A stretch of 64,000 nt of DNA. It comes from an uncultured Microthrixaceae bacterium. GTDB taxonomy: Bacteria; Actinomycetota; Acidimicrobiia; Acidimicrobiales; VFJN01. Under the pieces are notes generated by a model. The model was not told where the DNA came from and ran no database searches. It saw only the letters and a list, made by a program, of their open reading frames with translations. The DNA is taken from positions 1,804,836 through 1,868,835 of the forward strand of contig OY970242.1 in the NCBI GenBank assembly GCA_963715505.1, written 5' to 3'. Every line of letters starts with the position of its first letter. Position 1 is the stretch's first letter. The translations under genes were made by a program, and so were the position numbers. Positions 3,834 through 25,279 of the stretch are shown here, piece after piece.

Positions 3834-3844
3834 CGGTGCTCCTC

Positions 3845-5071: not shown

Positions 5072-5199
5072 CTCCGATCACGTGCCGCCGCGGCATCGCC
5101 TGCCCAATCGCCCGCCGCGTCAAACCGCGCTGCACCCGTCGGCGACGCCCCCGCACCGCTAACCAGCCGCTCGCCGACCGCCGGCGGGAACCAGGCGCC

Positions 5200-5766
5200 G
5201 TGCGTGGTCGTCCAAGCGGGGGCATGCACCCCGAGCGCGAGGCCTCCTTCGACGCGGTCGTCGCCGTCGCGTACGTGCCGCTGCAGCGCTACCTGACTCG
5301 GCGCTGCAACCCCGATGACGTCGATGACGTGCTCAACGTGGTGCTCCTGGCGATCTGGCGCCGGCTCGACAACATCCCGCCGGGCACGACGCTGCCCTGG
5401 TGCTACGGCGTGGCGCGGCGGGCCCTCGCCAACCACCGTCGGGGCGCCGAGCGCCGCCTGCGCCTGCTGCGCCGGGTGGCGGCGACGGCGCCGCCGGTTG
5501 CATCGCACCATTGGGTCGAGGCGGCCGACGTCGAGCTGCAGGCGGCGCTCGACCGGCTCGGCGACGTCGACCGCGAGGTCGTGCGGCTGTGGGCCTGGGA
5601 GCGCCTCGAGCCGCGGGAGATCGCGGTCGTGCTCGACGCCACGCCGAACGCCGTCGCGGTGCGGCTCGCCCGGATCCGTCGACGGCTCGGAGAGGACCTC
5701 GCGCGACAGGATCAGGTCACGGCCGGACACAACGAGCTCGAGGACCGCCCGGGGATGGAGCCGTGA
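5200..5766 (+). CDS. ECF-type sigma-70 family RNA polymerase sigma factor
   Basis: Region 2 (FDAVVAVAYVPLQRYLTRR...DDVLNVVLLAIW) and region 4 (REVVRLWAWERLEPREIAVVLDATPNAVAVRLARIRRRL) are both recognisable. The start could be the internal ATG at 5224. Confidence 0.8.
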   Translation: MRGRPSGGMHPEREASFDAVVAVAYVPLQRYLTRRCNPDDVDDVLNVVLLAIWRRLDNIPPGTTLPWCYGVARRALANHRRGAERRLRLLRRVAATAPPVASHHWVEAADVELQAALDRLGDVDREVVRLWAWERLEPREIAVVLDATPNAVAVRLARIRRRLGEDLARQDQVTAGHNELEDRPGMEP

Positions 5767-9674: not shown

Positions 9675-11312
9675 CTACGAGTCGGGCCAAGCCAGGCATG
9701 CGAGGTCGGCAAGTTCACGAGTCCGCTCAACCACACTCTTCGGGCGCCAGGTCCGCTTCATTGCGAGTCGCTTCGTGAGCTCGAAGCCGGAGTCCCTGTA
9801 GATGGCACGCTTGTCACCGAACCCCTTGCCTCCTGCGAGATGGTTGAGCCGCTTCTCGAGAAGAGCCAGGTTCCCTAGCGTCTGAACGACTGCGGAGTCT
9901 TCCTTGCTCGACGCCGAGTGCGCCGCTGGGAGAATGTGCTCAACAGTCACCGATCGTGAGTGCCACTCGATCGGTTTCGTTGGCCGGTCGTGACGCAGGT
10001 CATCGGCCTTCTCCAACATCGCGAGCAGGTACTTAGCGCGTGAGGTCGAGACGTCTCCGTACGACGCGAAGGCGGCGCGGAAGTCCTCGTCCGTGGGCAT
10101 GAGACGGTCGAGCAGCTTGCGTACATCAGGTTGGTTCTTTGCCGTTCCATTCGAGATGGCCTGCGCCGTGTCGCCGAAGGTCTCGTCAGCGACGCCGCCT
10201 CCAAGGCGTCCTGCAAACAGCCCGCGCACAGACCATGCGGCGACCTTGTTGAGCAGGCGAGCCGCGTCACGTACATCCCATCTCGAGAAGGCAGCCAGGA
10301 GCACCGGCATGCTGGCTTCGAGCCCGAAGCGGCGGTACGCGTAAAGCGCGTCACGGACTTCGACGGTCACGTCGGCCCAGAACGAGTGCTCGGGATCTCG
10401 CAACGCGAGATACACCTCGTGGGCCCTGCTGAGGTTCTCCACGTACGCCTTTGCCGCACTCGCCTTGCCACCTACCTCGGACTGAATCGACCGGTAGAGC
10501 TTCCGGGCGGACACGGAGCCATGTCGAGACGCGAAGTCGTGACGGATGAACTTGACGAGATCCTCAGCTCGCTCGAAGTTCGCCTCGAGCTGCGCCCACC
10601 TCTCCTCGACGAAGCGGAAGTAGTCCTTCGATGAGCTGAACAGGTAGTTCTTGAGAAGATCGGCTGTCGTCAGGTCGGCGCCGCGATCGTTGAGCGTCTC
10701 GAAGATCACGTATGCCTCGGGCAGGTCCGATGCTTCGGCGACGAGAACCTGCACCCGTGTCTCCAACTGTTGCGAGAGCGCGATCAGTTGCTCGTAGTCG
10801 GCCGCGGTCGGAGCGAGGGACTCGAGGTGGTGCCTGCAGGTTCTGTAGCTCAGAATGATGCGGCTCGTGGCCGGGATCGAAGCCACGTCGCCGTCAAGGA
10901 GTGCCTGGTAGTTCGATAGGTCGTCGGGGCTCAGGATGAGGCGTTCGACCGTGTCGTCCATCGCCAACACGTAGCCGCGCAGAAAGCGCTTCTCCACTTC
11001 CTCGGCCTGACGGTCCCGACCGAGCGCCGCTAGGTGGTCGCGAATCGCGATGAAGAGCAATGCCGTCGTGGCCAGCCGTTGTTGCCCATCCACGATCTGG
11101 CGCCGACCGCCCTCCTTGTCGGGCCTGGCGAAGACCACCGTGCCCATGAAGTAGTCGACGTCCTTCGACCGCGCGGTTGCGAGGTCGGACAGGTACTCCT
11201 CGACGTTTCCCGTGTCCCACGCGTAGCTCCGCTGAAAGCGGGGTACCTCCAGCAGGTAGTCCGCCAGCAGGTGGCCGAGTTGATCGTGACCGAACTGAGT
11301 TTGATCTGCCAT
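9675..11312 (-). CDS. GmrSD-type DUF262/DUF1524 nuclease (type IV restriction / SspE/BrxU-like)
   Basis: The N-terminal ParB-like DUF262 domain shows FQRSYAW and the IVDGQQRLATTALL motif. The C-terminal His-Me/DUF1524-like region shows VTVEHILP...GNLALLEKRLN. Confidence 0.85.
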   Translation of the reverse strand: MADQTQFGHDQLGHLLADYLLEVPRFQRSYAWDTGNVEEYLSDLATARSKDVDYFMGTVVFARPDKEGGRRQIVDGQQRLATTALLFIAIRDHLAALGRDRQAEEVEKRFLRGYVLAMDDTVERLILSPDDLSNYQALLDGDVASIPATSRIILSYRTCRHHLESLAPTAADYEQLIALSQQLETRVQVLVAEASDLPEAYVIFETLNDRGADLTTADLLKNYLFSSSKDYFRFVEERWAQLEANFERAEDLVKFIRHDFASRHGSVSARKLYRSIQSEVGGKASAAKAYVENLSRAHEVYLALRDPEHSFWADVTVEVRDALYAYRRFGLEASMPVLLAAFSRWDVRDAARLLNKVAAWSVRGLFAGRLGGGVADETFGDTAQAISNGTAKNQPDVRKLLDRLMPTDEDFRAAFASYGDVSTSRAKYLLAMLEKADDLRHDRPTKPIEWHSRSVTVEHILPAAHSASSKEDSAVVQTLGNLALLEKRLNHLAGGKGFGDKRAIYRDSGFELTKRLAMKRTWRPKSVVERTRELADLACLAWPDS

Positions 11313-13776: not shown

Positions 13777-14316
13777 CTAGCCCCCACCGGACCAGAAGTC
13801 CTCATCGGCCCTCGGGTGCCACTCCTTCACGACAAGGGCCGTGATGCGGCCGGGCTGGAGCGGCAACCAGGTGGGATGCCAGGTCCAGATGCCGAACCGG
13901 TACGACCGGTCGCTGCCATCTCGGGCGAGGAGTCCCATGAGCGGGTTGGGACAGCGGGCCTCTCGCGTAGTCGCGGTGTGCTGCATCGTGCGGCGGTCGC
14001 GGCGGCTCATGCTGAAGCCGCCGGCCGGGTGCACATGCCAGTCTCCGAGGTAGGTGACCTTGCCGTGAGTTCGCCGGTAGGTGATGTCCAGGACCATCTG
14101 CTGCCACTCGCTGTCAGGGGCGAACCGGACTGGCTGATGCTGCGCGGATGGACCTGGGCCGACCGTGGTAGCGATGACGATCTCATTCCGTTCAGGGTTC
14201 GCCCAGCCGAGGAGCATGCCTCCGGTCTCGGTTGGATGTGTCCGCTCCGCCTCGGCCGTCATATCGGCCAGTGCGGATTCGTTCAGCCAGACGGTCGGAT
14301 ACCGCATCGCGTGCAC
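13777..14316 (-). CDS. JAB/MPN (JAMM) metallopeptidase, Cap3-like
   Basis: ETGGMLLG is followed by a perfect JAMM motif, HVHPAGGFSMSRRD (HxHx7Sx2D). Confidence 0.85.
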   Translation of the reverse strand: MHAMRYPTVWLNESALADMTAEAERTHPTETGGMLLGWANPERNEIVIATTVGPGPSAQHQPVRFAPDSEWQQMVLDITYRRTHGKVTYLGDWHVHPAGGFSMSRRDRRTMQHTATTREARCPNPLMGLLARDGSDRSYRFGIWTWHPTWLPLQPGRITALVVKEWHPRADEDFWSGGG

Positions 14317-14382
14317 GCGGGGTGCTGACTGAGGACGAATGGTTCACCTGATCCGGGAAGGGCTGCCACAGCGGTGCGGAAG

Positions 14383-14390
14383 CTGTATCG
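14383..14390. repeat. IS256 target-site duplication CTGTATCG(G), left copy
   Basis: The same 8-9 nt occur at 15807-15814(15). Confidence 0.8.
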
Positions 14391-15806
14391 GTTGGCGTCC
14401 CGTGACGTGGTGTAGATCGGCGTAGGGGTCCACCCGTGGGGTGGGCCACTGGCGTGAGGCTCGGTGTGTTCCTTAGCCGAGGTCCACATCAAGGAGATCA
14501 CGCCAGTGACCCATCACGAGTCTGACCTGTCCGACCTGCTCGACGCGCTCCGCGCCGGGGAGATGACCGACACGATCCGCACGAGCCTGGAATGGATCGT
14601 CCAGGAGCTCATCGAGGCGGAGGCCACCGCGCAGATCGGGGCGGGCCTGTTCGAGCGTTCCGACGAGCGCACGACCCAGCGCAACGGGCATCGCCCACGA
14701 CTGTGGGCGACCAAGGCCGGCGATCTCGAGCTCAAGATCCCCAAGCTCCGGACGGGCTCGTTCTTCCCGAGCTTGCTGGAACGACGCCGCCGGATCGACC
14801 GGGCTCTCTACGCGGTGGTGATGGAGGCGTGGGTGCACGGCGTGTCGACCCGCAAGGTCGACGACCTCGTCGCCGCCCTCGGCGTCGGATCTGGGATCTC
14901 GAAGTCCGAGGTGTCGAGGATCTGCGCCCAGCTCGACACCGACTTGGACGCGTTCCGGGCCCGGCCGCTGAACCACATCGAGTTCCCCTATGTGTTCGCC
15001 GACGCGACCTACCTCAAGGGCCGCGTCAACGGCCGAGTCGTCTCACGAGCCGTCGTGGTCGCCACGGGGGTGACCGCCACCGGGGACCGTGAGGTCTTGG
15101 GCGTGGAGGTCGGCGACAGCGAGGACGGCGCCTTTTGGACCGCGTTCTTGAAGGGCCTCCGGGCCCGGGGCCTGGGCGGAGTGCAGCTGGTGATCTCTGA
15201 CCACCACCTCGGTCTGAAGCAGGCCATCGAGTCGGTGTTCATCGGCTCCACCTGGCAGCGCTGCCGAGTCCACTTCATGCGCAACGTCCTCGCCCGCGTC
15301 CCCAAGGCCTCCACCGAGATGGTCGCCGCAGCGATCCGCACGATCTTCGCTCAGCCCGACGCAGACCACGTCCGCTCCCAGCTCACCGAAGTCACCACCA
15401 TGCTCCACGCCCAGTTCCCCGACGTCGCCGACATGCTCACCGACGCCGCAGACGACCTCCTCGCGTTCACCGGCTTCCCCCAGGCCCACTGGCGCAAGAT
15501 CTGGTCGACGAACCCGCTCGAGCGGCTCAACGGCGAGATCAAGCGCCGCACCAACGTCGTGGGCGTGTTCCCCAACGACGCCTCCGTCGCCCGGCTCGTC
15601 ACCGCCGTCGTGGTCGAGACCCACGACGAATGGGCCGTTGCCGAACGCCGCTACCTCTCCGAAGCATCCATGGCCAAGCTCTACGCGAAGCCCGACCCCG
15701 ACACCCTCCTCGAGGAGCCGCCCCTCGCCATCACCGCCTGAGCCAAACTGTCAACGACATCGAGCTCACGCCGGCGTCGAACTACACCACTCCGCGGGGC
15801 GTCATC
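14391..15806 (+). mobile_element. IS256-family insertion sequence (about 1.4 kb)
   Basis: Imperfect terminal inverted repeats: GTTGGCGTCCCGTGACGTGGTGTAGATCGGCG versus the reverse complement GATGACGCCCCGCGGAGTGGTGTAGTTCGACG, about three quarters identical with a GTGGTGTAG core. One mutator-type transposase gene and an 8-9 bp TSD. Confidence 0.85.
14464..15741 (+). CDS. IS256 family (mutator-type) transposase
   Basis: Shows RNGHRPRLWATKAGDLELKIPKLRTGSFFPSLLERRRR...VSTRKVDDLV...FPYVFADATYLK...LVISDHHLGLKQAI...WQRCRVHFMRN...IWSTNPLERLNGEIKRRTNVVGVFPN. The true start may be GTG at about 14506. Confidence 0.92.
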   Translation: MCSLAEVHIKEITPVTHHESDLSDLLDALRAGEMTDTIRTSLEWIVQELIEAEATAQIGAGLFERSDERTTQRNGHRPRLWATKAGDLELKIPKLRTGSFFPSLLERRRRIDRALYAVVMEAWVHGVSTRKVDDLVAALGVGSGISKSEVSRICAQLDTDLDAFRARPLNHIEFPYVFADATYLKGRVNGRVVSRAVVVATGVTATGDREVLGVEVGDSEDGAFWTAFLKGLRARGLGGVQLVISDHHLGLKQAIESVFIGSTWQRCRVHFMRNVLARVPKASTEMVAAAIRTIFAQPDADHVRSQLTEVTTMLHAQFPDVADMLTDAADDLLAFTGFPQAHWRKIWSTNPLERLNGEIKRRTNVVGVFPNDASVARLVTAVVVETHDEWAVAERRYLSEASMAKLYAKPDPDTLLEEPPLAITA

Positions 15807-17590
15807 CTGTATCGGGCGTAGTGCCACTCGGCGGAGGGGTAGCCACGCTCGGTCGTCTCGCAGAGAGTCGACGCGGCAAGGCGAACCCCGGCCAGCGCGA
15901 TTGTTGCGACGTCGAAGCCAGTGCCCGTGAAGGTTGGGTCTGTGCAACCCGCTGGCCAGGCGTTCCGCGTTGCGGGATCCGGGTCCGCGGGCGGCAGCAT
16001 GCCGGGGTCGTCCTCGAGGTGGTGCATGAGGCAGGTCCAGCACGGCTCATCGGGATCAGGTCGGAACCGTGCGACGTAACCTCCCCAGCCGCCCTCGGTC
16101 CCGGCGACGACGACGTACGGAACGTTGTGATCGCGGGCGAGCTCCGAGAGGAAGTAGTTGACGCCAGTCTCCGCTGTGGCGTCGTAGACGATGTCGGAGT
16201 CGGCGACGATGCGGCTGATGCTCTCCCACTGGGGCTCGCCCTCGCCGTGAACGCGCACGCCGCCGATAGACGTGCCGAGAAGCTCAAGCTCGGTGTACGG
16301 CCAGTGCTGTGCGAGGTGGCCGTGGAGTGCCTGGAGCTTGTGGTGTCCAGCGAAGGCGTACCCGAGCGGCCAGCGAGCGGCGTTGCCGGGATCGAGGTGG
16401 TCGCGGTCCACGAGGTGGAGCTTGCCCGTACCTGCTTTCGCGAACTCAACAGCACTTGGCGCGCCAAGTCCGCCCGTGCCGAAGATGGCGACGGTGCGGT
16501 CGGACATCGCGGCGAGCGTAGGGATCCGACTCGTCATGTCGAGCGGGCCGGCTCGCAAGCCGCGCACGAGGTAGGGGCCGACTGACGTCGCGGCCGGTGT
16601 TGTCCTTCCTCTACTCGCGCCCTTGCGACGGACCTGCCTGTTCGGCGCTTGGAGCTGGGAGCCGTCTCGGCCACGAACTACGAACACCCACGCGTCTCCC
16701 TGATACACCGCTCCGGTGGCCTGATCGGCATGGCTCTCGTCGGTGAACACGACGCCAACGACATCAACTGATCCCGTGCCGATCCGCTCAAACGCGGGTT
16801 TGGCGAGCGCCGGGTTCTCGGCGATGGCGGCATCGAGCACAGCCTGGCCGCCGTCGGCGTCCGGCGGACCGGGAAGCCGACACCATCGCCCGTGGATCGT
16901 TCCCGAGAACAGCCGCCTGACGGCCGGATCTGCCTGTCGGAGGACCGTCCCATCGTCGGCTAGGACCTGCAGGATGGCTGCGCGTAGCGCTCGAACGTCG
17001 CCGCTCCCCTCGACCCCGATCTCGAGTCTGCCTCCGTTGGCCTCGGCCAACTCGCTCCATGAACCGTCCACCCGGGCCACCGCGGCCTGCTCGTACCTGT
17101 AGTAGTTGGCGTACGGCTCGACGTGGGGAAGGGGTCGTTGGCCTGGGGCGCCAGTCCCTCCCTGAGGCTCGCGATCCTCCCCTCCTGTCGTCGAACTGCT
17201 CGGGTGGCTGGACGGCTCATCCGTCCGATCGGCCAGGAGCTTTGGCATCTGCTCGGCGATCATGTCAGCCGCCGTCTCGCCAACGTCCCACTCCGAGGCG
17301 CCTGACCGGAGCAGGCACAGGTTGCCAACGAACGGCTGCTGATGCGCTCCAAAGCGATGGTCGGTCATGACCTCGACGCGAAAGTACGGGTGGAGGTCCG
17401 AGTAGGTGACCGAGAGCTCGTAGCGCGCGCCGTTGTCGTCGGTGTAGGGGACCGTGTACTGGCGCACCGCAGCGGTCCGGAGAAGATCCTCGTTGAGGAT
17501 CGGGCGCTGCCCGCCGAAGCGCTCCAGTGCCTCTTCCTCAGCCTGGAGCACCTCGGGGAAGTCCTCCCACCATGGGCGAGGAAGGCTCAC
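15782..17590 (-). CDS. E2-like/E1-like (ThiF) fusion protein, Cap2-like, with the 3' end replaced by IS256 sequence
   Basis: The N-terminal UBC-like core reads HPYFRVEV...PFVGNLCLL. The C-terminal adenylation domain reads VAIFGTGGLGAPSAVEFAKAGTGKLHLVDRDHLDPGNAARW, followed by CWTC and AGCTDP. The last 7 codons (MTPRGVV) and the stop lie inside the IS. The pre-insertion reading frame continues at 14390 down to 14283 (...RYSFRTAVAALPGSGEPFVLSQHPACTRCGIRPSG). Confidence 0.8.
   Translation of the reverse strand: MSLPRPWWEDFPEVLQAEEEALERFGGQRPILNEDLLRTAAVRQYTVPYTDDNGARYELSVTYSDLHPYFRVEVMTDHRFGAHQQPFVGNLCLLRSGASEWDVGETAADMIAEQMPKLLADRTDEPSSHPSSSTTGGEDREPQGGTGAPGQRPLPHVEPYANYYRYEQAAVARVDGSWSELAEANGGRLEIGVEGSGDVRALRAAILQVLADDGTVLRQADPAVRRLFSGTIHGRWCRLPGPPDADGGQAVLDAAIAENPALAKPAFERIGTGSVDVVGVVFTDESHADQATGAVYQGDAWVFVVRGRDGSQLQAPNRQVRRKGASRGRTTPAATSVGPYLVRGLRAGPLDMTSRIPTLAAMSDRTVAIFGTGGLGAPSAVEFAKAGTGKLHLVDRDHLDPGNAARWPLGYAFAGHHKLQALHGHLAQHWPYTELELLGTSIGGVRVHGEGEPQWESISRIVADSDIVYDATAETGVNYFLSELARDHNVPYVVVAGTEGGWGGYVARFRPDPDEPCWTCLMHHLEDDPGMLPPADPDPATRNAWPAGCTDPTFTGTGFDVATIALAGVRLAASTLCETTERGYPSAEWHYARYRMTPRGVV
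15807..15814. repeat. IS256 target-site duplication CTGTATCG(G), right copy
   Basis: Direct repeat of 14383-14390. Confidence 0.8.
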
Positions 17591-17724
17591 CCGACGGGGC
17601 GGTGACCGGGCGGCTTTGGCGGACGGTCCGGGCGGGGACGATCCGGTGGGGGTCCCGGTCGGTCCGGCGGTGGGCCCTGGCCGGGCGTGTCGTCGGGCTT
17701 GCCGGGCTCATCTGGCTTCGGCAT
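17587..17724 (-). CDS. 45-aa proline-rich small ORF ending in Gly, translationally coupled to the E2-E1 gene
   Basis: ATG 17724 lies 5 nt after GGACAGGAGG. The product is MPKPDEPGKPDDTPGQGPPPDRPGPPPDRPRPDRPPKPPGHRPVG. Its stop TGA overlaps the GTG start of the E2-E1 gene (GTGA). Coding status is unproven. Confidence 0.35.
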   Translation of the reverse strand: MPKPDEPGKPDDTPGQGPPPDRPGPPPDRPRPDRPPKPPGHRPVG

Positions 17725-17898
17725 CACGGCCTCCTGTCCACAGCCGTCGCCCACGACCTGTGGACGAATGACACGGCTGTGATTCAGGATACCGGTGGGG
17801 TGTGACAAACGGCCCTTGGGTCAGCCGTGCGCAGGAGTCGGAGCTGCCCTATGAGAGCGCACCGGCACTCGCGCCGAGCGCCGATCTTGCTGGCGACG

Positions 17899-20337
17899 TC
17901 AGGTGACGTCGGCGAGGTTCAGCAGCGCCTGCCAGGAGCCGGCTGCGCCCTTGATCGCGGACTCCGTGGCGAACAAGTAGCGCCAGGTGTCGGGCGCGTC
18001 GCCGGAGTCGTTGACGTGGCGGACCCAGCGCTCGGCCGCCTGGCGCTTGACGATGACGTCGTCGTCGGTGGCCGCGGCGTCTGACTTGCCCTCGATCAGC
18101 CAGTGCACACCGTCGGTGTCGGCTGCGATGAAGTCGGCGTAGTACGTGCCGCCCTCGTAGGCGATGCGGGCCTCGTGGTGGGCTTCGATGCGGCACCACC
18201 ACGCGATCGCGTCGTCGGTGTCGAGGATCTCGGCGATGGCGAGCTCGGTGGACTTCGCGTCGAACCGGGCGACCGGCAGCACGTTGCGGTTCCAGCCGCC
18301 GTACCAGCGGTGCGCGACAAACGGGGTCGTGCGGTCGAACACCTCACCGGGGAGGGGCTCGCCCACGCGGGGGTAGTCGACCAGCTCGACGCGCTCGACG
18401 GTGCTCGATGGACGCCTGAGGTGCTTGACCCGGACCATGGCGAGGAACGCGTCGACCGCCGCCTGGACCCGCGCCTCCCCCCACGTGGTCGACGACTCGG
18501 CCGTCACACCAGCACCCTCGAGGAACGCTTGTGTCAGTCGGCTGACGGCCCTCGACTCCTTCTTGCTCCGCTCGACGTACCGGGAGTCGAGGATCTTGTG
18601 GCGCAGCCGCTCCCGGAGGTCGTCGAGCCCGAGCTCGAGCTGGGTCGCCTCCACCACGTCCTCCGCCGCCCGGGTCGACACACGTACGCCCTCGCCCGTG
18701 CCGTCCTCGACCCGTTCCATGTCGACCAGCTCACGCTGGAGGGTCGCCGCGATCTCGGTGGTGAAGCGCCGTCCCAGCTCCTCGGCCTCGCTGCTCTCGA
18801 CGTCGGAGAGCGTGAACGCGACCGGCCGCAGCGTCGCCGTCAGGACCGGGAAGCGGAACTGTGGTGCACCTTCGACGAGGTGCATGTCCTGAGCGAGCTG
18901 CTGCATCTGCTGCTGCGCCTCGTCGATCCGCGTCTCGGCGTCGATGATCTCGAGACCCAGCGCGAACCCCTCCTCGGACGCTTCAGCACCCGAGGGCCCA
19001 GCAGGCGAGACCACCGCGTCAGCGCGGCCCGCTCCATCGCCGGCCTCTTCCGCGCCGGCAGTCGCCGTCGAGACGTCGACGAGCTGCGCCTGGCGCTCGG
19101 TGAAGAACGCCTCGAGCATGACGCCGGCGTCCGCGAGCAGCTCGCGGAACCGGCGGTGCGAGAGCACCTCGACCGTGTCGAGCATCTGCTGGCCGGTGCG
19201 CCTCCCGAACGGCAGACGCAGCCCGCGGCCGAGGATCTGCTCCGACAGCGCCTTGGACTCCAGTGCCCGGGTCGTGGCTACGACGTAGATGTTCTTGACG
19301 TCCCAGCCCTCCTGCAGCATCTGGACCGAAACGACCGCCCGCACGGGCGACGCCTCGTCCTCGATACCGTCGAGAGCCACGAGAGCCTCCTCGGGCGCCT
19401 CGGAGGTGATGGTCAGCACGGCGTCGCTGGAGCCGAGGTACTCCGGCCGAGCGAGGAGCGCTGCGAGGTCGTTCGCCTCCTCGATCGTCTCGCACACCAG
19501 GAACATCACAGCGCGCACTGGGTCTCGACCGGTCGAGGCGGTCCAGGAGTCGATCGCCTGCTGCTTCGTGTCGAGCAGCCGGACACCGTCAGCCAGGATC
19601 CGGTTCAGATCACTGGTGCCGTCACGCCGTCCGACGAGCACGGGGATCTTCACGAACTCGTCCGCGATCGCCTCCGCGAGCGTGTACTTGAACACGATGC
19701 TCTCGGGGTCGGTCTTCTCGTTCGGCGTGGCGGTGAGCCCGATGAGCGCCAGCGGGTGCAGGTCGCGGATCGAGCGGGAGAACTGCGGACCGAAGTACAC
19801 GTGGTGCTCGTCGGCGATCACCACGAGGTCGTCGAGGCCGGCCAGGTGCTCGTAGAGGCTGGCGCCAAGGTTCTCGTCGTAGTCGCGGGTTCGGCGCCGC
19901 ATCTCGCCGCGCGGGCGGAGCAGCTGCTGCACGTTGAACAGGTACAGGAGGTTGCGCTGCCCCTCCCCCACTGCCTGCGCGACTCCACCCCGCTGGAAGG
20001 TGTCGACGGTGACGATCTCAGGCCGCGACTCCAAGCCCTCGACGTACTTGCTGTCGCCCGGCGTGAAGTTGCGCCGCGTCTTGGCGAGGATCGCCGTGCG
20101 ATGGCACACGACCAGCACGTTGTGGTGGCCGGACGCTGCCAGGTAGTCGACCAGCCCTGCAGCGATGTACGACTTGCCGGTCGCGGTTGCCAGGTCGCAG
20201 ACCAGCTCGATGCCCCTGTCCTCGGCCTTGCCGAGTTCCTTTGCCACGGCGTCCAACGCCCGCCGGTTCGGCTCGCGCAGATCGAGACGAGCCGCGATCT
20301 CCTCCACCAGCTCGGGCTGGTACTCGACGAGGCTCAC
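17899..20337 (-). CDS. res: type III restriction enzyme Res subunit (SF2 helicase plus PD-ExK nuclease)
   Basis: Walker A DLATATGKSY and DEHH box IADEHH are present. The C-terminal region reads YADFIAADTDGVHWLIEGK. The start overlaps the mod stop by 4 nt. Confidence 0.9.
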   Translation of the reverse strand: MSLVEYQPELVEEIAARLDLREPNRRALDAVAKELGKAEDRGIELVCDLATATGKSYIAAGLVDYLAASGHHNVLVVCHRTAILAKTRRNFTPGDSKYVEGLESRPEIVTVDTFQRGGVAQAVGEGQRNLLYLFNVQQLLRPRGEMRRRTRDYDENLGASLYEHLAGLDDLVVIADEHHVYFGPQFSRSIRDLHPLALIGLTATPNEKTDPESIVFKYTLAEAIADEFVKIPVLVGRRDGTSDLNRILADGVRLLDTKQQAIDSWTASTGRDPVRAVMFLVCETIEEANDLAALLARPEYLGSSDAVLTITSEAPEEALVALDGIEDEASPVRAVVSVQMLQEGWDVKNIYVVATTRALESKALSEQILGRGLRLPFGRRTGQQMLDTVEVLSHRRFRELLADAGVMLEAFFTERQAQLVDVSTATAGAEEAGDGAGRADAVVSPAGPSGAEASEEGFALGLEIIDAETRIDEAQQQMQQLAQDMHLVEGAPQFRFPVLTATLRPVAFTLSDVESSEAEELGRRFTTEIAATLQRELVDMERVEDGTGEGVRVSTRAAEDVVEATQLELGLDDLRERLRHKILDSRYVERSKKESRAVSRLTQAFLEGAGVTAESSTTWGEARVQAAVDAFLAMVRVKHLRRPSSTVERVELVDYPRVGEPLPGEVFDRTTPFVAHRWYGGWNRNVLPVARFDAKSTELAIAEILDTDDAIAWWCRIEAHHEARIAYEGGTYYADFIAADTDGVHWLIEGKSDAAATDDDVIVKRQAAERWVRHVNDSGDAPDTWRYLFATESAIKGAAGSWQALLNLADVT

Positions 20338-21923
20338 GGCAGCCGACCGCCCACGAGGTCGTTCGGAGCATGGCGCAGCTTCGACCCAGGAGACAGCTCC
20401 CGGAGTCGAGCCGTAGCGCCCTCGGCGAAGACCTTGGCGACGATCACCATCCGCTCGCCCTCATCGAGCAGGCCGGCCAGGTGCTCCACCTCCGGGGGCC
20501 CGACAACACCGTCGAGCGCAGCGAGCAGTGTCCGACCCTTGCGACCGACGAAAGGTCCCGAGCGCTCCTCCGGGAAGCCGAGGTGCGCGGCGCACGCGAG
20601 CGCGAAGCGACCGTTGCCGGCATCCGCCATGTACACGTCGCCCGTCTCAAGATCGAGATCGAACATCGACGGCCCCACCTCGGCCACGACGAAGCCGCCT
20701 CCGCCCTTCCACTCGACGTCCTCGCTGATGCCGCCGGGATCCTCGCCGTCGACGACCTTCGTAAGCCGCGGGCGCGCGTACTGCTCGATCGTGTCCGCCT
20801 CGCGCTCGACCGCCACCCACCGGCGACCCATCTTGTGTGCCACCGCCGCGGTGGTCCCGGACCCCACGAAGCAGTCGAGCACGAGGTCACCGGGGTCCGT
20901 CGCGATGTGGACGATCCGCTGCAGCAGCCGTTCTGGCTTGGGAGTAGCAAACACGTCGCCGAGCAGCGCCCGCACTTCCTCCTTGCCGTTTCTGACGAAG
21001 CCCACCTCCTCCGGCGGCCAAACCGATGCGACCACCCGGCCACCCCGGACCTCGCTCAGGTACCGCTTGACGTACGGGCGACTCCCACCGTCAGCCCCCC
21101 AGTAGATCCGGCCCTCTCGATCGAGCCTCGCCAGCTCCTCTTGAGATACCCGCCAGTAGCTACCCGACGGCGGTCCTTCGATCACGCGGCCGGAAGGCGT
21201 TGTGACGACGTACAGCCCCTTCGAGTAGTAGTTGCGTGCCGCGAGATCTCCTCGCCGCCACGGGCCTCGCGGATCATCGTCAGGGTTCGTGTAGGCGCTG
21301 TCCATCCCCTCGGTGCGCGGAAGCTCGTTCGTCCTGAGGCGGCCAAGGTCCATCGCATAGACGAGGATCGAGTCGTGGTCTCCGGACACGAATCGTGCGG
21401 TGTTTCGAGGATCGTTTCGACGACGCCAAACGATCGTGGCGACGTAGTTGGACGCGCCCAGGACCTCGTCCATGACGCACCGGCACCGATGGACCTCAGC
21501 ATCATCGAGGTGCACCCACACGGATCCATCCGGCGCGAGCAGTGGGCGGATCTGCTCGAGGCGATCGCGCAGCATCGAGAGCCAGACGGAGTGCTCGAGG
21601 TTGTCGTCGTAGTTGGCGAACGCCTGCCCCGTGTTGAACGGCGGATCGATGTACACCAACCGCACCTTGCCCGCGTACGCCTCGGCAAGTTCAGGGATGC
21701 GGTGAAGCGCCGTGAGCGCGTGCAGCGCGTCACCATGTATGAGCAGGTTCGGACGCTCGACATCGATCTCGCCGACGCGGTCGACCTCGTCGATCAGGCG
21801 GACCTCGGTCACGCGGGGATCGGCCGGGTCGACCCACTCGTAGCCGCCCTCAGCGGTCGTGTGGAGGCGCTTGTCCTTGTTGGTCCATGTGAGCTCGAGC
21901 CGTCCGCTGTGCGTCATCACCAT
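20334..21923 (-). CDS. mod: type III R-M Mod subunit (beta-class N6-A/N4-C DNA methyltransferase)
   Basis: Shows LELTWTNKDK and motif IV LVYIDPPFNTG, then motif I VLDCFVGSGTTAAVAHKMGRRW after the TRD. Start set at MVMTHSG (cat 21921-21923). The longer track ORF opens at 22301. Confidence 0.9.
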   Translation of the reverse strand: MVMTHSGRLELTWTNKDKRLHTTAEGGYEWVDPADPRVTEVRLIDEVDRVGEIDVERPNLLIHGDALHALTALHRIPELAEAYAGKVRLVYIDPPFNTGQAFANYDDNLEHSVWLSMLRDRLEQIRPLLAPDGSVWVHLDDAEVHRCRCVMDEVLGASNYVATIVWRRRNDPRNTARFVSGDHDSILVYAMDLGRLRTNELPRTEGMDSAYTNPDDDPRGPWRRGDLAARNYYSKGLYVVTTPSGRVIEGPPSGSYWRVSQEELARLDREGRIYWGADGGSRPYVKRYLSEVRGGRVVASVWPPEEVGFVRNGKEEVRALLGDVFATPKPERLLQRIVHIATDPGDLVLDCFVGSGTTAAVAHKMGRRWVAVEREADTIEQYARPRLTKVVDGEDPGGISEDVEWKGGGGFVVAEVGPSMFDLDLETGDVYMADAGNGRFALACAAHLGFPEERSGPFVGRKGRTLLAALDGVVGPPEVEHLAGLLDEGERMVIVAKVFAEGATARLRELSPGSKLRHAPNDLVGGRLP

Positions 21924-22241
21924 CTCGTCGTCGCCGCCGCACCGGGATGGTACGCCGCGTGCGGGGTGGCTTCGGGTGACGCAACACGAAGCCTGGCTGC
22001 CGGGGCGCCGCCACAACGGCGCCCCGGCGTGCGGGTGATCGATGAATGTCAAGGATCCAGGGGACCAGTTGCGGATGCAGTGCTGGCCGGTCCAACGCAT
22101 CGTCCAGCGTCTGCCCTGTTGTGCAACACGATCGTCCCAGCCATGGCTGGGACGATCCCCGCGATCGCTCGCTATCGCTGCTCGGCGGTGGTCACCCTCC
22201 CTCTCGGGCGGCACGGTGCCGTCACACGAAGGGAGGCTGAG

Positions 22242-22727
22242 ATGCCCGATCAGAACGATGAGCTCGAAGGTTCCGACAACCAGGCAGACCCGGGTGAGCA
22301 CGCAGCCGAAGGTCCGCAGGACGCGGAGGAGCCGGCGGGAGCCGACGACGCGGGCGAGAAGGCGGCGGAACGGGGATCAGCCGACAGCTCCGAAGAGGTG
22401 ACGCCGGAGCAGGGACCGACCGACGACGCCGACCTGATGCCGATGCCGCTGGAGAACCGGCAGGTGCTCGGCGAGCTGGTGGTTCACTACGCCAGCCGCG
22501 ATGTCACCCTGCTGCTCGACGGCGAGGCCGCCGTTCGGATGCTCACGATGTTCGCTCGGAGGAGGGAGGGCGGTCTGGGGGATCATCTTCATCCGCAGCT
22601 GTCCTCTGCTCGTGCAGGGTGGGTCGTACTCGATCTTGGAGAGCCGTTGGCGATGAGCTGGATGCCGGGTCTTCCGACTCGCCAGCCCCGTACGGTGATC
22701 GATCCGGCGATCCCGAACGCAGCCTGA
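22242..22727 (+). CDS. hypothetical protein with strongly acidic disordered N-terminal half
   Basis: ATG 22242 follows GGGAGG (22231-22236). The N-terminal about 70 aa are rich in D/E (MPDQNDELEGSDNQADPGEHAAEGPQDAEEPAGADDAGE...). Divergent from mod. Confidence 0.45.
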   Translation: MPDQNDELEGSDNQADPGEHAAEGPQDAEEPAGADDAGEKAAERGSADSSEEVTPEQGPTDDADLMPMPLENRQVLGELVVHYASRDVTLLLDGEAAVRMLTMFARRREGGLGDHLHPQLSSARAGWVVLDLGEPLAMSWMPGLPTRQPRTVIDPAIPNAA

Positions 22728-23265: not shown

Positions 23266-23790
23266 ATGTTCGATCTCGACGAAGAGCTTGCCCGTTCATC
23301 AGACATGGGACGGATCGCCCATGCGGTGATCGCCGTCCTGGCCGCCACCACACGCTGTCCCACCCTCGGACAGGTTCAGCAGCTGGTCGATGAAGCGCTC
23401 AGTGGGTTCGCGCCCATCGAGATGAGAGCGCACCGACAGAACATCCGAGGTGTGGTGCACCGGTACTTCACCCGGTGTCTGCCACCTCCCGAGTTCATCT
23501 TCGGTGGCGCCGAAGTCGATCTCGGCATCGGCCGGGCCGACCTCATGTGGTTCGACATCGACGATCGCGTCCTGGCCGACGAGGTCAAGGCGGGCAGCCC
23601 TCGCCGCGTCGGGCTGGCCGCCACCACCGATCAGGTCGATCGGTACCGGCGCGCCTGCCTCAGCGTGTGGGGCGACCGCTTCGTCGGCATCCGGCTGCTG
23701 TGCCCGACCGACCCGGCGAGGTCGTTGTTCATCGACCCGGCCGGCACCACGTGCGGCCTCACCACCACCCCCTACTTCGAAGGGAACTGA
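23266..23790 (+). CDS. PD-(D/E)xK nuclease, TnsA-like position
   Basis: GGAEVDLGIGRADLMWFDIDDRVLADEVKAG gives a D...(D/E)xK pattern. Its stop lies 1 nt before the transposase ATG. The track ORF opens at 23194. Confidence 0.5.
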   Translation: MFDLDEELARSSDMGRIAHAVIAVLAATTRCPTLGQVQQLVDEALSGFAPIEMRAHRQNIRGVVHRYFTRCLPPPEFIFGGAEVDLGIGRADLMWFDIDDRVLADEVKAGSPRRVGLAATTDQVDRYRRACLSVWGDRFVGIRLLCPTDPARSLFIDPAGTTCGLTTTPYFEGN

Positions 23791-23791
23791 C

Positions 23792-25279
23792 ATGGCCAAC
23801 AAGCCCAAGTACCTCCGGGCGGCGGCGGAGCGCGCCGTCGACGCGCTGGTCGACCACCACAAGACCCACGATGGGATCCCACGCGAACTGCTACGGCGCA
23901 AGGCCAGGGAGTCCGGCTACTCCGAGCGCCACCTCCGCCGCCTGACAATCGCCCGCCTCGGCAGCTCAGCCGGGGACGGGGACGGGGAAGAGGAAGGGCC
24001 GTTCTCGGTCACCGAGGAGGTCATCACGGCGGTCTTCCTCGCATGCGGATGTCTTGCCCAGGCGCGACGCCTTCTCGAGCGTGGGGGCAAGAGGGCGCCG
24101 TCGGAGAGCACGTTCAAGCGCAAGGTCATCAGTGCGCTCGGGACGGACCAGCTCGCCTACGCACGCAAGGGCTCGGGAGGGTTCCGCGACGCGCAGGCCT
24201 ATCTGGCATCCGAGTACCCGCACCGGCTCCACACGGTGCAGCTGGACCACACCGAGCTGCCCATCTGGGTCGTGCCCCGCGGCAGCAAGACGGCGGTGAA
24301 GCCTTGGATGACAGTCGTGATGGACTCCAAGACCCGGTACCTGTTGTCCTGGACGATCACCTTTGGACGCCCGACCGCCGACGAGGTGCGCGCAGCGCTG
24401 ATGAGCGCCATGACCATCCGCACGGCACCCGACGGCGAGACGGTGGTGGGCGGCAGGCCGCTTCGTGCTGTGTGGGATCGCGGCCTGGAGTTCCTCGCCA
24501 ACCTCATCACCGAGTCGTGCCTTCGCCTCGACGTGCTTCCGGTGGCCCTCCCTGCCTACTCCCCGCATCTCAAGGGTCGCCTGGAACGGAGCTGGCGGTT
24601 CCTCAAGGAGGACTGCTTGTCGCCCCTGCCGGGCTACACCGAGGGGCCCAAGGATCTGCGTGGAAACAGCGCCATCGCCAAGGCGGCCCTCGGCGAAGAC
24701 GAGTTCCTCATCGCCCTCGCCGACTGGGTCGACTGGTACATCACCGAGCACCGGATCGACGGAGAGCTGACCCCGCTCGAGCGGTGGCAAGCAGACGGAC
24801 ACCCGATCGAGGAGGTGCCGCCCGAGCAGCTCTGGGTCGACATGCTCATCGCCAAGGACCGCTGCAAGGTCTCCAAGAACGGCATTCGCTTCGACCGCAT
24901 CGACTGGACGGCCCCCGAGATCACCGGCGTCGTCGGCCGCCGAGTCGAGATCCGGTACCTGCCACATGACCGGACGTTCATCGAGGTCTTCCTCGACGGC
25001 GACCACCTCTGCACTGCCTATCCGCAGCAGAGCCTGACGGCGGATCAACAGGAGGCGGTGATCGCACGCCGAAACGCGCAGCGCAACGCCGCGAAGCAGC
25101 GGTTCACGACTGCCAACCGCCAGCGCAAGAAGAACGCCAAGGGCCCGGTGCACCGGCTCGAGGTCGACAAGAACGGCAATCGGCTGGTCATCGACACCCC
25201 CGACGACCTGCTCGACGGCACGGACATCGACCTCGCTGAACTCCTTGGCGACAGCGACAGCCAGCCGAGGTTGTTCTGA
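23792..25279 (+). CDS. Mu/TnsB/TniA-type DDE transposase (rve core plus Mu-transposase C-terminal barrel)
   Basis: DDE context: VQLDHTELPIWV, VVMDSKTRYLLSW and YSPHLKGRLERSWRFLKE. It also shows SKNGIRFDRIDWTAPE...VEIRYLPHD. Confidence 0.85.
   Translation: MANKPKYLRAAAERAVDALVDHHKTHDGIPRELLRRKARESGYSERHLRRLTIARLGSSAGDGDGEEEGPFSVTEEVITAVFLACGCLAQARRLLERGGKRAPSESTFKRKVISALGTDQLAYARKGSGGFRDAQAYLASEYPHRLHTVQLDHTELPIWVVPRGSKTAVKPWMTVVMDSKTRYLLSWTITFGRPTADEVRAALMSAMTIRTAPDGETVVGGRPLRAVWDRGLEFLANLITESCLRLDVLPVALPAYSPHLKGRLERSWRFLKEDCLSPLPGYTEGPKDLRGNSAIAKAALGEDEFLIALADWVDWYITEHRIDGELTPLERWQADGHPIEEVPPEQLWVDMLIAKDRCKVSKNGIRFDRIDWTAPEITGVVGRRVEIRYLPHDRTFIEVFLDGDHLCTAYPQQSLTADQQEAVIARRNAQRNAAKQRFTTANRQRKKNAKGPVHRLEVDKNGNRLVIDTPDDLLDGTDIDLAELLGDSDSQPRLF

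What the first reader, a model, noticed from the sequence alone, without database searches (positions are those of the whole stretch)
17587..17724. Translationally coupled 45-aa polyproline ORF ending in Gly: candidate disordered (Pup-like) modifier, or an EF-P-dependent leader
Seen directly: the strong SD GGACAGGAGG lies 5 nt before ATG 17724. The product is MPKPDEPGKPDDTPGQGPPPDRPGPPPDRPRPDRPPKPPGHRPVG, with PDRP-type repeats and two PPP runs. The terminal Gly codon is followed by a TGA that overlaps the GTG start of the E2-E1 gene (GTGA). Established knowledge: E1 enzymes adenylate a C-terminal carboxylate that is usually Gly. Pup shows that a disordered, non-beta-grasp peptide can serve as a protein modifier in actinobacteria. 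PPP motifs stall ribosomes without EF-P. Inference A: the peptide is the conjugated tag of this system. Inference B: it is a leader whose polyproline stalling gates coupled translation of the E2-E1 gene. Caveat: Pro codons are GC-rich, so such an ORF could arise by chance in this genome.
Basis: partly seen in the sequence, partly recalled or inferred. Interest (0 to 1): 0.8.

Follow-up and report, generated by a model that had tools for sequence, protein, structure and literature searches.

The report
Tail-only peptide substrate of Cap2/Cap3
The 45-residue proline-rich ORF is a real, conserved but almost never annotated gene that encodes only the C-terminal tail (…PPxPPxxRxVG) that Cap2-type E2-E1 enzymes activate on CBASS cyclases, so it is probably a minimal foldless protein tag, although in this genome an insertion sequence has broken the enzyme gene.

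Summary
In detail: AGGAGG lies 5 nt before ATG 17724, the 45-aa product is as written, and its TGA overlaps the GTG of the next gene (GTGA).

The ORF is not a GC artefact. In 49 non-redundant homologous loci from at least 9 phyla (GC 31-73%), an ORF ending …PPxPPxxRxVG lies just upstream of the E2-E1 gene. Arg(-4), Val(-2) and Gly(-1) are near-invariant yet use all synonymous codons. Pairwise dN/dS is about 0.01-0.2 in nine of ten pairs.

The E2-E1 is a Cap2 homologue (top fold hit 7TO3) and is followed by a JAB/Cap3. In sister loci the same tail ends CD-NTases, ThsB-TIR, DUF3892 and DUF1508 proteins. In 36 of the 49 loci, including this window, the gene is the tail alone. Nine loci carry 1-4 residues after the Gly, and one has a tandem two-unit precursor.

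Best reading (about 0.65): a disordered modifier without a beta-grasp fold, activated at Gly45 by Cap2 and removed or processed by the JAB. The EF-P leader idea is not supported as the function.

In this window an IS256-family element (14392-15806, 9-bp duplication) cuts off the last 33 codons of the E2-E1 gene, including its second CxxC, so the system is probably inactive here.

I found no description of tail-only peptides. Novelty: new variant of a known kind.

The parts
17786..17808 (-). Promoter-like element: TTGTCA (17808-17803), 11 nt, TATCCT (17791-17786)
   Evidence: The TGTCA-N11-TAnnnT arrangement is shared by the window, L001 and L003 (CACACT in place of TAnnnT in L004). The simple sigma-70 scan found nothing here. 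This is inferred, not shown.
17739..17781 (-). 9-bp perfect inverted repeat (CACAGCCGT ... ACGGCTGTG) in the leader, ending 3 nt before the Shine-Dalgarno
   Evidence: Sequence. RNA fold -28.1 kcal/mol, z = -2.2. Stems predicted at the same place in L003, L004 and L005 have different sequences (z = -1.5, -0.6 and -5.5); L001 has no comparable hairpin. Function unknown.
17730..17735 (-). Shine-Dalgarno AGGAGG, 5 nt before the ATG
17587..17724 (-). 45-aa proline-rich tail-only peptide gene (stop codon included). The C-terminal PPKPPGHRPVG matches the family motif PPxPPxxRxVG.
   Evidence: for the sequence; for conservation. AF2 predicts no secondary structure, pTM 0.20.
15807..17590 (-). Cap2-like E2-E1 gene, 5' part (codons 1-594 and two bases of codon 595). 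Contains E2 Cys92, GxGxxG at 371-376, CWTC at 517-520 and E1 crossover-loop Cys549.
   Evidence: Pfam ThiF and PADLOC E1-E2; alignment A1; AF2 model and Foldseek top hit Cap2 7TO3_A, E = 1.4e-19.
15807..15815 (-). Target-site duplication, copy 1 (CCGATACAG)
14392..15806 (+). IS256-family insertion sequence, 1415 bp. Transposase at 14464-15741 on the + strand; imperfect terminal inverted repeats.
   Evidence: Pfam Transposase_mut 2.6e-136; NCBIfam transpos_IS256 5.6e-106; inverted repeat I1; ends shown.
14383..14391 (-). Target-site duplication, copy 2 (CCGATACAG)
14283..14382 (-). Displaced 3' end of the E2-E1 gene (last 33 codons and stop: ...SFRTAVAALPGSGEPFVLSQHPACTRCGIRPSG*). It carries the second CxxC that is conserved in homologues.
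   Evidence: Joining 17590-15807 to 14382-14283 gives an open 627-aa protein that matches the homologues' C-termini.
13777..14316 (-). JAB/Cap3-like metallopeptidase (GTG 14316 or ATG 14307). It overlaps the original end of the E2-E1 gene. JAMM motif E...HVHP...S..D is intact.
   Evidence: Pfam Prok-JAB 1e-13; PADLOC JAB 4.4e-25; sequence. A JAB follows the E2-E1 gene in 50 of 52 loci.

Best explanation
The ORF encodes a stand-alone version of the disordered C-terminal tail that Cap2-type E2-E1 enzymes recognise. It belongs to a three-gene operon: tail peptide, Cap2-like E2-E1, and Cap3-like JAB.

Proposed mechanism:
1. The peptide is made from its own Shine-Dalgarno and ATG and is translationally coupled to the enzyme gene. 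The GTGA overlap is shown; the coupling is inferred.
2. The E1 domain binds the extended PPxPPxxRxVG tail and adenylates the carboxylate of Gly45.
3. The peptide passes as a thioester to the E1 crossover-loop Cys (Cys549), then to the E2 Cys (Cys92), and finally to an amine on a target protein.
4. The JAB peptidase cleaves after the Gly. This reverses conjugation and, in relatives with extra residues or tandem units, matures the precursor.
Steps 2-4 are inferred from homology with the E. cloacae Cap2-CdnD system.

The peptide would therefore be a minimal ubiquitin-like modifier with no beta-grasp fold. The genomic setting (restriction-modification, GmrSD, Fic, PIN and PycTM neighbours) suggests an anti-phage role. 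The target is unknown.

In this window the system is probably dead. An IS256-family element removed the last 33 codons of the E2-E1 gene (half of its Zn-binding Cys4 site) and separated the JAB gene from the operon promoter.
For: The ORF is a real gene:
- A homologous ORF sits directly upstream of the E2-E1 gene in L001 and L003-L005, in L002 and in almost all of the 58 loci from the genome collection.
- It is also found on three plasmids, including pNGR234a.
- Over 49 non-redundant loci (GC 31-73%), Arg(-4) is present in 48/49 with 6 codons, Val(-2) in 49/49 with 4 codons and Gly(-1) in 48/49 with 4 codons. The two PP pairs are present in 44-49 of 49.
- On the last 24 codons, differences sit mostly at codon position 3 and dN/dS is about 0.01-0.2 in nine of ten pairs; the tenth, near-identical pair (3 differences) is uninformative.
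- The peptide is 80% identical between the window and L001, while the E2-E1 proteins are 50% identical.

The enzyme is Cap2-like:
- PADLOC E1-E2 model, 7.7e-38.
- A profile of the family hits Cap2 7TO3.
- The AF2 model has pLDDT 82, and its top Foldseek hit is Cap2 7TO3_A over the full length, E = 1.4e-19, followed by Atg7.
- Cys92 and the nucleotide-binding glycines are invariant, and Cys549 is present in at least 90% of sequences.
- The JAB has an intact JAMM motif.

The tail is the substrate element:
- In sister loci the same tail ends SMODS/CD-NTase proteins (L015, L051), ThsB-TIR proteins (L018, L020), DUF3892 proteins (L024, L029, L031) and a DUF1508 protein (L032).
- Cap2 adenylates the disordered CD-NTase C-terminus. 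A 12-residue tail tethered to the E1 domain is enough for adenylation in crystals. Cap3 cuts exactly after the last residue (10.1101/2022.03.31.486616).
- ThsB proteins linked to Cap2/Cap3 also carry the tail with a conserved Gly (10.64898/2025.12.03.692087).

Precursor-like features:
- Nine of 49 loci have 1-4 residues after the Gly.
- L030 encodes two units in tandem (...DRPVG-R...DREVG-R).

Operon content:
- Only the E2-E1 and JAB genes are conserved neighbours.
- Tail-only loci are the majority (36/49) and are spread over the E2-E1 tree.
Against: - There is no biochemical or expression evidence. Adenylation, thioester formation and conjugation are all inferred by homology.
- No complex model could be made with the tools available.
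- No target or effector gene is conserved, so it is not explained how tagging would protect the cell.
- A peptide that merely occupies or regulates Cap2 would show the same conservation.
- The sampling of loci was seeded from the window's own clade, so the 36/49 proportion is biased.
- In this window the enzyme gene is IS-disrupted, so the peptide may have no current function here.
Confidence: 0.65

Rival explanations
1. Pseudo-substrate or regulator. The peptide binds the Cap2 adenylation site, and may even be adenylated, but is not transferred to targets. It would set the activity of the E2-E1/JAB pair, or prime it for another substrate encoded elsewhere in the genome.
For: The conserved tail and the tight linkage to the E2-E1 gene fit this reading equally well. 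No conserved target or effector gene is present.
Against: - Both catalytic cysteines and the JAB are conserved together with tail-only peptides in dozens of lineages.
- Residues after the Gly and the tandem precursor in L030 imply release of a free Gly C-terminus for chemistry.
- No second tail-bearing ORF lies within the flanks of any locus or elsewhere in the window.
Confidence: 0.12
2. RiPP-like chemistry. The E1 domain adenylates the peptide C-terminus to make a small-molecule or peptide-nucleotide product, as MccB does with MccA or PaaA with its peptide, rather than a protein conjugate.
For: MccB and PaaA appear among the structural and sequence relatives of the E1 domain. A short ribosomal peptide encoded next to a ThiF-like enzyme is the hallmark of such clusters.
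Against: - The full-length fold matches Cap2 with an N-terminal E2 domain and an invariant Cys, not an MccB peptide-clamp domain.
- A JAB isopeptidase is always linked.
- The same tail ends CD-NTases, which are known Cap2 conjugation substrates.
- No export or immunity genes are conserved nearby.
Confidence: 0.06
3. EF-P-dependent leader. Polyproline stalling in the small ORF gates coupled translation of the E2-E1 gene, and the peptide itself has no function.
For: The ORF holds many XPPX motifs. Its stop overlaps the E2-E1 start codon in the window and in all four loci of its clade, and also in L014 and L033.
Against: - Conservation is at the amino-acid level of the last four residues through every synonymous codon, with low dN/dS.
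- The same motif ends 115-340-aa CD-NTase, TIR, DUF3892 and DUF1508 proteins.
- In L002 the stop (TAA) is followed by a 5-nt gap before the ATG.
- Low-GC Bacteroidota versions have few consecutive prolines outside the core motif.
Confidence: 0.05
4. Non-functional remnant. The ORF is the leftover 3' end of a deleted CD-NTase or TIR gene, or a chance ORF in GC-rich DNA.
For: Proline-rich open frames of this composition occur by chance in this window. The local system is already decaying through the IS insertion.
Against: - The ORF has its own Shine-Dalgarno and ATG, and a conserved N-terminus MPKPD.PG.PD shared with L001 and P0039.
- 36 of 49 loci in many phyla keep a tail-only gene of 40-70 aa under purifying selection.
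Confidence: 0.02

Closest known systems
Type II CBASS Cap2 (E2-E1 fusion) and Cap3 (JAB), which conjugate the CD-NTase C-terminus (Ledvina et al. 2023; Jenson et al. 2023)
   Same: - Same enzyme architecture and top structural match (7TO3).
- E2 and E1 catalytic cysteines and the adenylation motifs are present.
- A JAB gene lies immediately downstream.
- The substrate is a disordered tail that ends in a small residue.
- Sister loci of this clade are true CBASS operons, with SMODS proteins that carry the same PPxPPxxRxVG tail.
   Different: - The operon has no CD-NTase and no effector.
- The gene in the substrate position encodes only the tail, preceded by a variable low-complexity Pro-rich N-terminal part.
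- The outcome cannot be priming of a cyclase.
Thoeris operons with Cap2/Cap3, in which ThsB-TIR proteins carry the C-terminal tail (bioRxiv 10.64898/2025.12.03.692087)
   Same: They show that the Cap2/Cap3 module and its recognition tail are portable between cargo proteins. L018 and L020 in this analysis are of that type.
   Different: The cargo there is a signalling enzyme that works with an effector. Here there is no cargo domain.
Ubiquitin and bacterial Ubl systems (Bil, Bub)
   Same: - Activation of a C-terminal Gly by an E1, transfer through an E2, and reversal by a dedicated peptidase.
- Precursors with extra C-terminal residues or tandem units.
- Location in defence islands.
   Different: The peptide has no beta-grasp fold: it is 42% Pro and AF2 predicts no secondary structure. 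The enzyme is of the Cap2/Atg7-like type, not a Bil or Bub E1.
Pup (prokaryotic ubiquitin-like protein) of actinobacteria
   Same: A small, intrinsically disordered modifier encoded by a short gene.
   Different: Pup ends in GGQ or GGE and is ligated through the Glu side chain by PafA, after deamidation by Dop. That pathway has no E1/E2 chemistry. No PafA or Dop gene is linked here, and the tail-peptide family extends far beyond actinobacteria.
MccA/MccB and PaaP/PaaA (E1-like enzymes acting on short ribosomal peptides)
   Same: A very short gene lies next to a ThiF-fold adenylating enzyme that acts on the peptide's C-terminus.
   Different: Those systems have no E2 domain and no JAB, use a different C-terminal residue, and yield an antibiotic rather than a protein conjugate.

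Membership tests
Cap2 (CBASS-type E2-E1 fusion) | Three-part architecture: N-terminal E2-like domain, linker domain, C-terminal ThiF/Atg7-like adenylation domain | tested here: met
   AF2 model (pLDDT 82). The Foldseek top hit is Cap2 7TO3_A, E = 1.4e-19, over the whole length, followed by Atg7. PADLOC E1-E2 7.7e-38.
Cap2 (CBASS-type E2-E1 fusion) | Catalytic Cys in the E2 domain, catalytic Cys on the E1 crossover loop, and a GxGxxG/Arg/Asp adenylation site | tested here: met
   Cys92, G371/G373/G376, R406, K418 and D470 are invariant; Cys549 is present in at least 90% of 31 homologues. Residues 544-555 form a low-confidence loop, as expected for a crossover loop.
Cap2 (CBASS-type E2-E1 fusion) | Intact C-terminal part with the second CxxC of the Cys4 site | tested here: not met
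   In the window the ORF ends at 15782 inside an IS256-family element. The last 33 codons, which hold the CxxC, lie 1.4 kb away at 14382-14283. The feature is met in the reconstructed pre-insertion gene.
Type II CBASS operon | CD-NTase and an effector gene in the same operon as Cap2 and Cap3 | tested here: not met
   The upstream gene is the 45-aa peptide and then a type III restriction enzyme. Only the E2-E1 and JAB genes are conserved neighbours. CD-NTases occur only in sister loci L015 and L051.
Cap3 (JAB isopeptidase) | JAMM motif and a position directly after Cap2 | tested here: met
   Prok-JAB 1e-13; PADLOC JAB 4.4e-25; E...HVHP...S..D motif. The gene overlaps the original E2-E1 stop. 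NCBIfam Cap3 scores only 35.7 bits against a cut-off of 200, so this is a relative rather than an equivalog.
Cap2 substrate tail | Disordered C-terminal tail ending in a conserved small residue, encoded next to Cap2 | tested here: met
   The PPxPPxxRxVG motif is conserved in 49 loci, and the identical motif ends CD-NTase and ThsB proteins. Actual adenylation cannot be tested with these tools.
Ubiquitin-like (beta-grasp) modifiers | Beta-grasp fold | tested here: not met
   19 of 45 residues are Pro. AF2 gives no helix or strand and pTM 0.20. No Pfam, NCBIfam or PADLOC match.
Ubiquitin-like (beta-grasp) modifiers | C-terminal Gly exposed directly or after processing | tested here: met
   Gly is the last residue in 39 of 49 loci. 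Nine loci have 1-4 further residues, and L030 is a tandem precursor.
Pup | C-terminal GGQ/GGE and linked PafA/Dop genes | tested here: not met
   The C-terminus is RPVG. The neighbours are the E2-E1 and JAB genes. PafA and Dop elsewhere in the genome could not be examined.
MccA/MccB-type RiPP | E1-like enzyme with an N-terminal peptide-clamp domain, no E2 or JAB, and a peptide ending in Asn | tested here: not met
   The N-terminal domain is E2-like: Cap2 is the top hit and the profile also hits UBC E2s. A JAB is present, and the peptide ends in Gly.
EF-P-dependent or arrest leader peptide | The function lies in ribosome stalling, so the constraint falls on the stalling motif and on coupling, not on the released product | tested here: not met
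   The strongest constraint falls on the terminal RxVG at the protein level. The same motif ends long proteins. Stalling itself cannot be tested here.

The most novel reading that the evidence does not exclude
A widespread and almost wholly unannotated family of 40-70-residue, intrinsically disordered, proline-rich peptides acts as a genuine protein modifier. The peptides would be conjugated through E1-E2 thioester chemistry by Cap2-like enzymes and removed by a JAB peptidase. This would be a 'ubiquitination' system whose modifier has no fold at all, consisting only of the enzyme-recognition tail. It would work as a self-contained three-gene immune or regulatory module in at least nine bacterial phyla.
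Probability: 0.5. Interest if true: 0.85.

Novelty: new variant of a known kind. Interest (0 to 1): 0.78.

Why it matters
- **A foldless modifier.** It would show that E1/E2-type conjugation does not need a beta-grasp modifier. A bare tail of about 11 conserved residues (PPxPPxxRxVG) on a disordered peptide would suffice. That bears on how ubiquitin-like signalling evolved and on what Cap2 actually recognises.
- **A hidden gene family.** Ten exact peptide sequences are absent from a collection of 15 billion proteins. A profile search finds only seven unnamed entries. The family occurs next to defence genes in many phyla and on well-studied replicons such as pNGR234a.
- **Modular cargo.** The Cap2/Cap3 module appears with swappable cargo: CD-NTase, ThsB-TIR, DUF3892, DUF1508, a Bacteroidota domain, or nothing.
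- **A practical assay.** The invariant Arg at -4 means trypsin should leave a diagnostic xVG remnant on modified lysines, which makes the hypothesis directly testable by proteomics.
- **A possible tool.** A short genetically encoded tag with a dedicated ligase and protease could also be useful as a tool.

Tried and rejected
- **Single-sequence PDB search.** The E2-E1 sequence alone hit only ThiF and MoeB. A family profile and a fold search were needed to reach Cap2.
- **Apparent fusions of the peptide to the E2-E1.** The N-terminal extension of P0006 is the small ORF read in the wrong frame. In P0026/L065 the in-frame '...HRPVGAMLRSWW' lies in a contig where the peptide is split over three frames, which suggests indel errors. 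Neither counts as evidence for a fusion.
- **A conserved fourth gene.** All-against-all clustering of the flanking ORFs found only the E2-E1 gene, the JAB gene and their antisense shadow ORFs.
- **A second tail-bearing ORF.** None was found in the window or in the loci.
- **Viral contigs.** No relatives were found in IMG/VR.
- **Promoter scan.** The sigma-70 consensus scan found nothing upstream.
- **NCBIfam.** Only sub-threshold hits to 6A-MBL cap2_3 and to Cap3. 6A-MBL is a different, known system.
- **Literature.** Ten full-text searches were run and two were badly framed. None returned a description of a proline-rich or tail-only peptide with Cap2/Cap3 or with E1-E2-JAB operons. Subscription-only papers are not covered.
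Full report
**1. The observation**

On the minus strand, AGGAGG (17735-17730) lies 5 nt before ATG 17724. The ORF runs to Gly45 (GGG, 17592-17590) and TGA (17589-17587). The GTG at 17590-17588 opens the next ORF, which gives the GTGA overlap.

Composition alone does not make the ORF special. Two other stop-free 45-codon stretches in this 71%-GC window also hold 19 prolines.

**2. The surroundings in the window**

- Upstream on the same strand lie a type III methyltransferase (20334-22301) and a type III restriction enzyme (17899-20337).
- The ORF at 15782-17590 has a ThiF domain and matches PADLOC 'E1-E2' models (7.7e-38).
- Next comes an IS256-family transposase on the opposite strand (14464-15741). 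It scores 2.6e-136 against Pfam Transposase_mut and 5.6e-106 against NCBIfam IS256.
- After that comes a JAB peptidase (13777-14316) with an intact E...HVHP...S..D motif.

An alignment with 30 homologues showed that the window's E2-E1 lacks the conserved C-terminus, which holds a CxxC. The missing 33 codons (...SFRTAVAALPGSGEPFVLSQHPACTRCGIRPSG*) lie at 14382-14283, on the far side of a 1415-bp element (14392-15806). That element has imperfect terminal inverted repeats and is flanked by a 9-bp direct repeat, CCGATACAG.

Removing the element and one repeat copy restores an open 627-aa gene whose end overlaps the JAB start, as in the homologues. The operon here was therefore peptide, E2-E1, JAB, and it has been broken by an insertion sequence.

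**3. The small ORF is a conserved gene**

- A Gordonia MAG, whose E2-E1 is only 50% identical, carries MPKPDDPGRPDEHPGQGPPPDRPGPPPDRPRPPKPPRPPKDRPVG, again with a GTGA overlap.
- Iamia sp. SCSIO 61187 and two metagenomic actinobacterial contigs carry versions of 44-59 aa that end DRPVG or HRPVG, with GTGA or TTGA overlaps. The public gene calls leave this spot empty.
- An Acidobacteriota MAG, whose E2-E1 is 33% identical, has a 55-aa version ending PRPVG. There the stop is TAA and the enzyme's ATG follows 5 nt later.
- A profile-seeded scan of one genome per species returned 58 loci. They come from Actinomycetota, Acidobacteriota, Pseudomonadota, Gemmatimonadota, Chloroflexota, Planctomycetota, Patescibacteria, Bacteroidota and Desulfuromonadales. 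Nearly every locus with sequence upstream has an ORF that ends ...PPxPPxxRxVG close to the E2-E1 start.

Over 49 non-redundant loci (GC 31-73%):
- Arg(-4) is present in 48, encoded by 6 different codons.
- Val(-2) is present in 49, encoded by all 4 codons.
- Gly(-1) is present in 48, encoded by all 4 codons.
- The two PP pairs are present in 44-49.

In ten pairwise comparisons of the last 24 codons, differences fall mainly at codon position 3 (for example 15 of 18). dN/dS is about 0.01-0.2 in nine pairs. The near-identical Blastococcus pair has only 3 differences and is uninformative. This is selection on a translated protein.

The gene is also almost invisible to annotation. Ten exact peptide sequences, several from RefSeq genomes, are absent from a collection of 15 billion proteins. 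A profile search of 5.8 billion clusters found only seven members, all unnamed or 'hypothetical'.

Three annotated plasmids have the peptide in an unannotated gap: an Iamia plasmid, Arthrobacter sp. FB24 plasmid 1 and S. fredii pNGR234a.

**4. What the enzyme is**

- A profile of the family hits Cap2 (7TO3) as well as ThiF, MoeB, UBA5, Atg7, MccB and several UBC E2s.
- The AlphaFold2 model (pLDDT 82) has E. cloacae Cap2 7TO3_A as its best Foldseek match over the whole length (E = 1.4e-19). Atg7 complexes come next.
- Cys92 in the E2 part, the GxGxxG motif, and Arg, Lys and Asp of the adenylation site are invariant. Cys549, on a low-confidence loop, is nearly invariant.
- These correspond to the features described for Cap2: an E2 Cys on a hairpin and an E1 Cys on the crossover loop (10.1101/2022.03.31.486616).

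**5. The key link: the same tail on known substrates**

In 13 of the 49 loci the upstream gene is larger but ends in the same tail. The larger proteins are:
- SMODS/CD-NTase (L015, L051), which makes those loci true type II CBASS;
- ThsB-type TIR (L018, L020);
- DUF3892 (L024, L029, L031);
- DUF1508 (L032);
- an unassigned Bacteroidota domain (L036, L041, L043, L059, L063).

Published work shows three relevant facts:
- Cap2 adenylates the disordered CD-NTase C-terminus and conjugates it to targets.
- A 12-residue tail tethered to the E1 domain is adenylated in crystals.
- Cap3 cuts exactly after the last residue.

A December 2025 preprint reports Thoeris operons with Cap2/Cap3 whose ThsB proteins carry the tail with its conserved Gly.

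The window's peptide is therefore homologous to the enzyme-recognition tail of known Cap2 substrates, with nothing attached except a variable, repetitive Pro-rich N-terminal part.

Tail-only genes are the majority in this sample (36 of 49). They are scattered over a neighbour-joining tree of the E2-E1 proteins, with the cargo-bearing types as nested clades. The sample was seeded from the window's own clade, so the proportion is biased.

Only the E2-E1 and JAB genes are conserved neighbours, and no effector is shared.

**6. Precursor-like features**

Nine loci have 1-4 residues after the Gly: RL, CG, WSRA, WVR, SAR, L, NE (in two loci) and R. L030 encodes two units in tandem, each followed by Arg. 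These resemble ubiquitin precursors and need a peptidase that cuts after the Gly, which is what the linked JAB should do.

**7. Mechanism proposed**

Shown:
- the gene, its conservation and its coupling geometry;
- the enzyme's family and its catalytic residues;
- the shared tail on known substrates.

Inferred:
- the E1 domain adenylates Gly45;
- the peptide moves to Cys549, then to Cys92, then to an amine on a target;
- the JAB reverses conjugation or matures precursors;
- the role is in anti-phage defence. The neighbours are type III restriction-modification and GmrSD in the window, and type I restriction-modification, Fic, PIN and PycTM elsewhere.

What tagging achieves is unknown. Modification of phage or host proteins, as in Bil systems, is one possibility.

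The peptide has no predicted secondary structure (AF2 pTM 0.20), so it is not a beta-grasp protein.

**8. Rivals**

- **Pseudo-substrate or regulator.** This reading fits the same conservation and cannot be excluded without experiments.
- **RiPP-like chemistry (MccB/PaaA type).** The E2 domain, the JAB and the CD-NTase homology argue against it.
- **EF-P leader.** The constraint lies on the terminal residues at the protein level, and the motif also ends long proteins. EF-P is still probably needed to synthesise the peptide.
- **Remnant or chance ORF.** contradict this.

**9. Status in this window**

The IS removes half of the presumed Zn-binding Cys4 site from the E2-E1 and places 1.4 kb of foreign DNA, with a gene on the other strand, between it and the JAB gene. 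The system is likely inactive here. The peptide gene and its leader are intact.

**10. Novelty**

The machinery (Cap2/Cap3) and the principle of tail recognition are known, and TIR cargo was reported in late 2025. I found no description of a tail-only peptide substrate in ten full-text searches, nor in Pfam, NCBIfam or PADLOC.

I file it as a new variant of a known kind. Interest is high because it implies a foldless modifier for E1/E2 chemistry and a widespread unannotated gene family.

Noticed in passing
window 14392-15806 (duplications at 15807-15815 and 14383-14391): An IS256-family element is inserted in the 3' end of the E2-E1 gene, with a 9-bp target duplication CCGATACAG. It cuts off 33 codons, including a conserved CxxC, and separates the JAB gene from the operon.
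   Followed up: yes
window 17899-22301 (-), 9675-11312 (-), 23450-25279 (+): The locus sits in a defence/mobile island. It holds a type III methyltransferase and restriction enzyme upstream (the Mod ORF as listed is probably over-extended by about 125 codons at its 5' end), a GmrSD-type type IV restriction enzyme downstream, and a Mu-like transposase (rve + Mu-transpos_C) beyond the R-M genes.
   Followed up: partly
L030:371-676 (MAG Candidatus Cyclobacteriaceae): The upstream ORF encodes two tail units in tandem (...PQTPDRPVG-R-...PRTPDREVG-R*). This is a polyubiquitin-like precursor arrangement.
   Followed up: partly
L024, L029, L031, L032, L036, L041, L043, L059, L063 (the 95-192-codon open frame that ends just before the E2-E1 gene at 4001): Small proteins with DUF3892, DUF1508 or an unassigned Bacteroidota domain ('FSCEEEWEVDYL...') carry the same Cap2-type tail. 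They may be further unreported cargo classes for Cap2/Cap3 modules.
   Followed up: partly
L068:2240-2380 (S. fredii NGR234 pNGR234a, upstream of NGR_RS31045); L067 (Arthrobacter sp. FB24 plasmid 1); L066 (Iamia plasmid): Tail peptides lie in gaps with no listed gene on three plasmids. The gene table used is incomplete, so they may be annotated in the original records. The pNGR234a peptide is MSNTNKPGREGHPEHPDVPKGPPSHTPGRPDGPPVPSHPPSHRPVG. The Iamia plasmid copy has an identical peptide, but its E2-E1 is split into two annotated CDSs.
   Followed up: partly
window 17739-17781 (-); L003, L004, L005 leaders: Inverted repeats or hairpins lie just upstream of the Shine-Dalgarno, with different sequences in each locus (window z = -2.2; L005 z = -5.5). 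A shared TGTCA-N11-TAnnnT motif lies further upstream. These may be an operator or leader structure.
   Followed up: partly
L065:4990-5130 (contig of P0026): The peptide reading frame is split over three frames, and the last part reads through in frame into the E2-E1 (...HRPVGAMLRSWW). This is probably due to indel errors in the assembly. A natural fusion cannot be excluded.
   Followed up: partly
family motif, e.g. L008/L054 ...PPRPPHHRPVG: The tail superficially resembles proline-rich antimicrobial peptides such as apidaecin, whose C-terminus I recall as ...PRPPHPRL. This is probably only compositional and was not tested.
   Followed up: no
window 2778-5225 (-), 38492-38626 (+), 36260-36394 (-): An 815-aa ORF has a Lys/Ala-rich HC2-like C-terminal tail. 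Two other very proline-rich open stretches also occur elsewhere in the window. None was examined.
   Followed up: no
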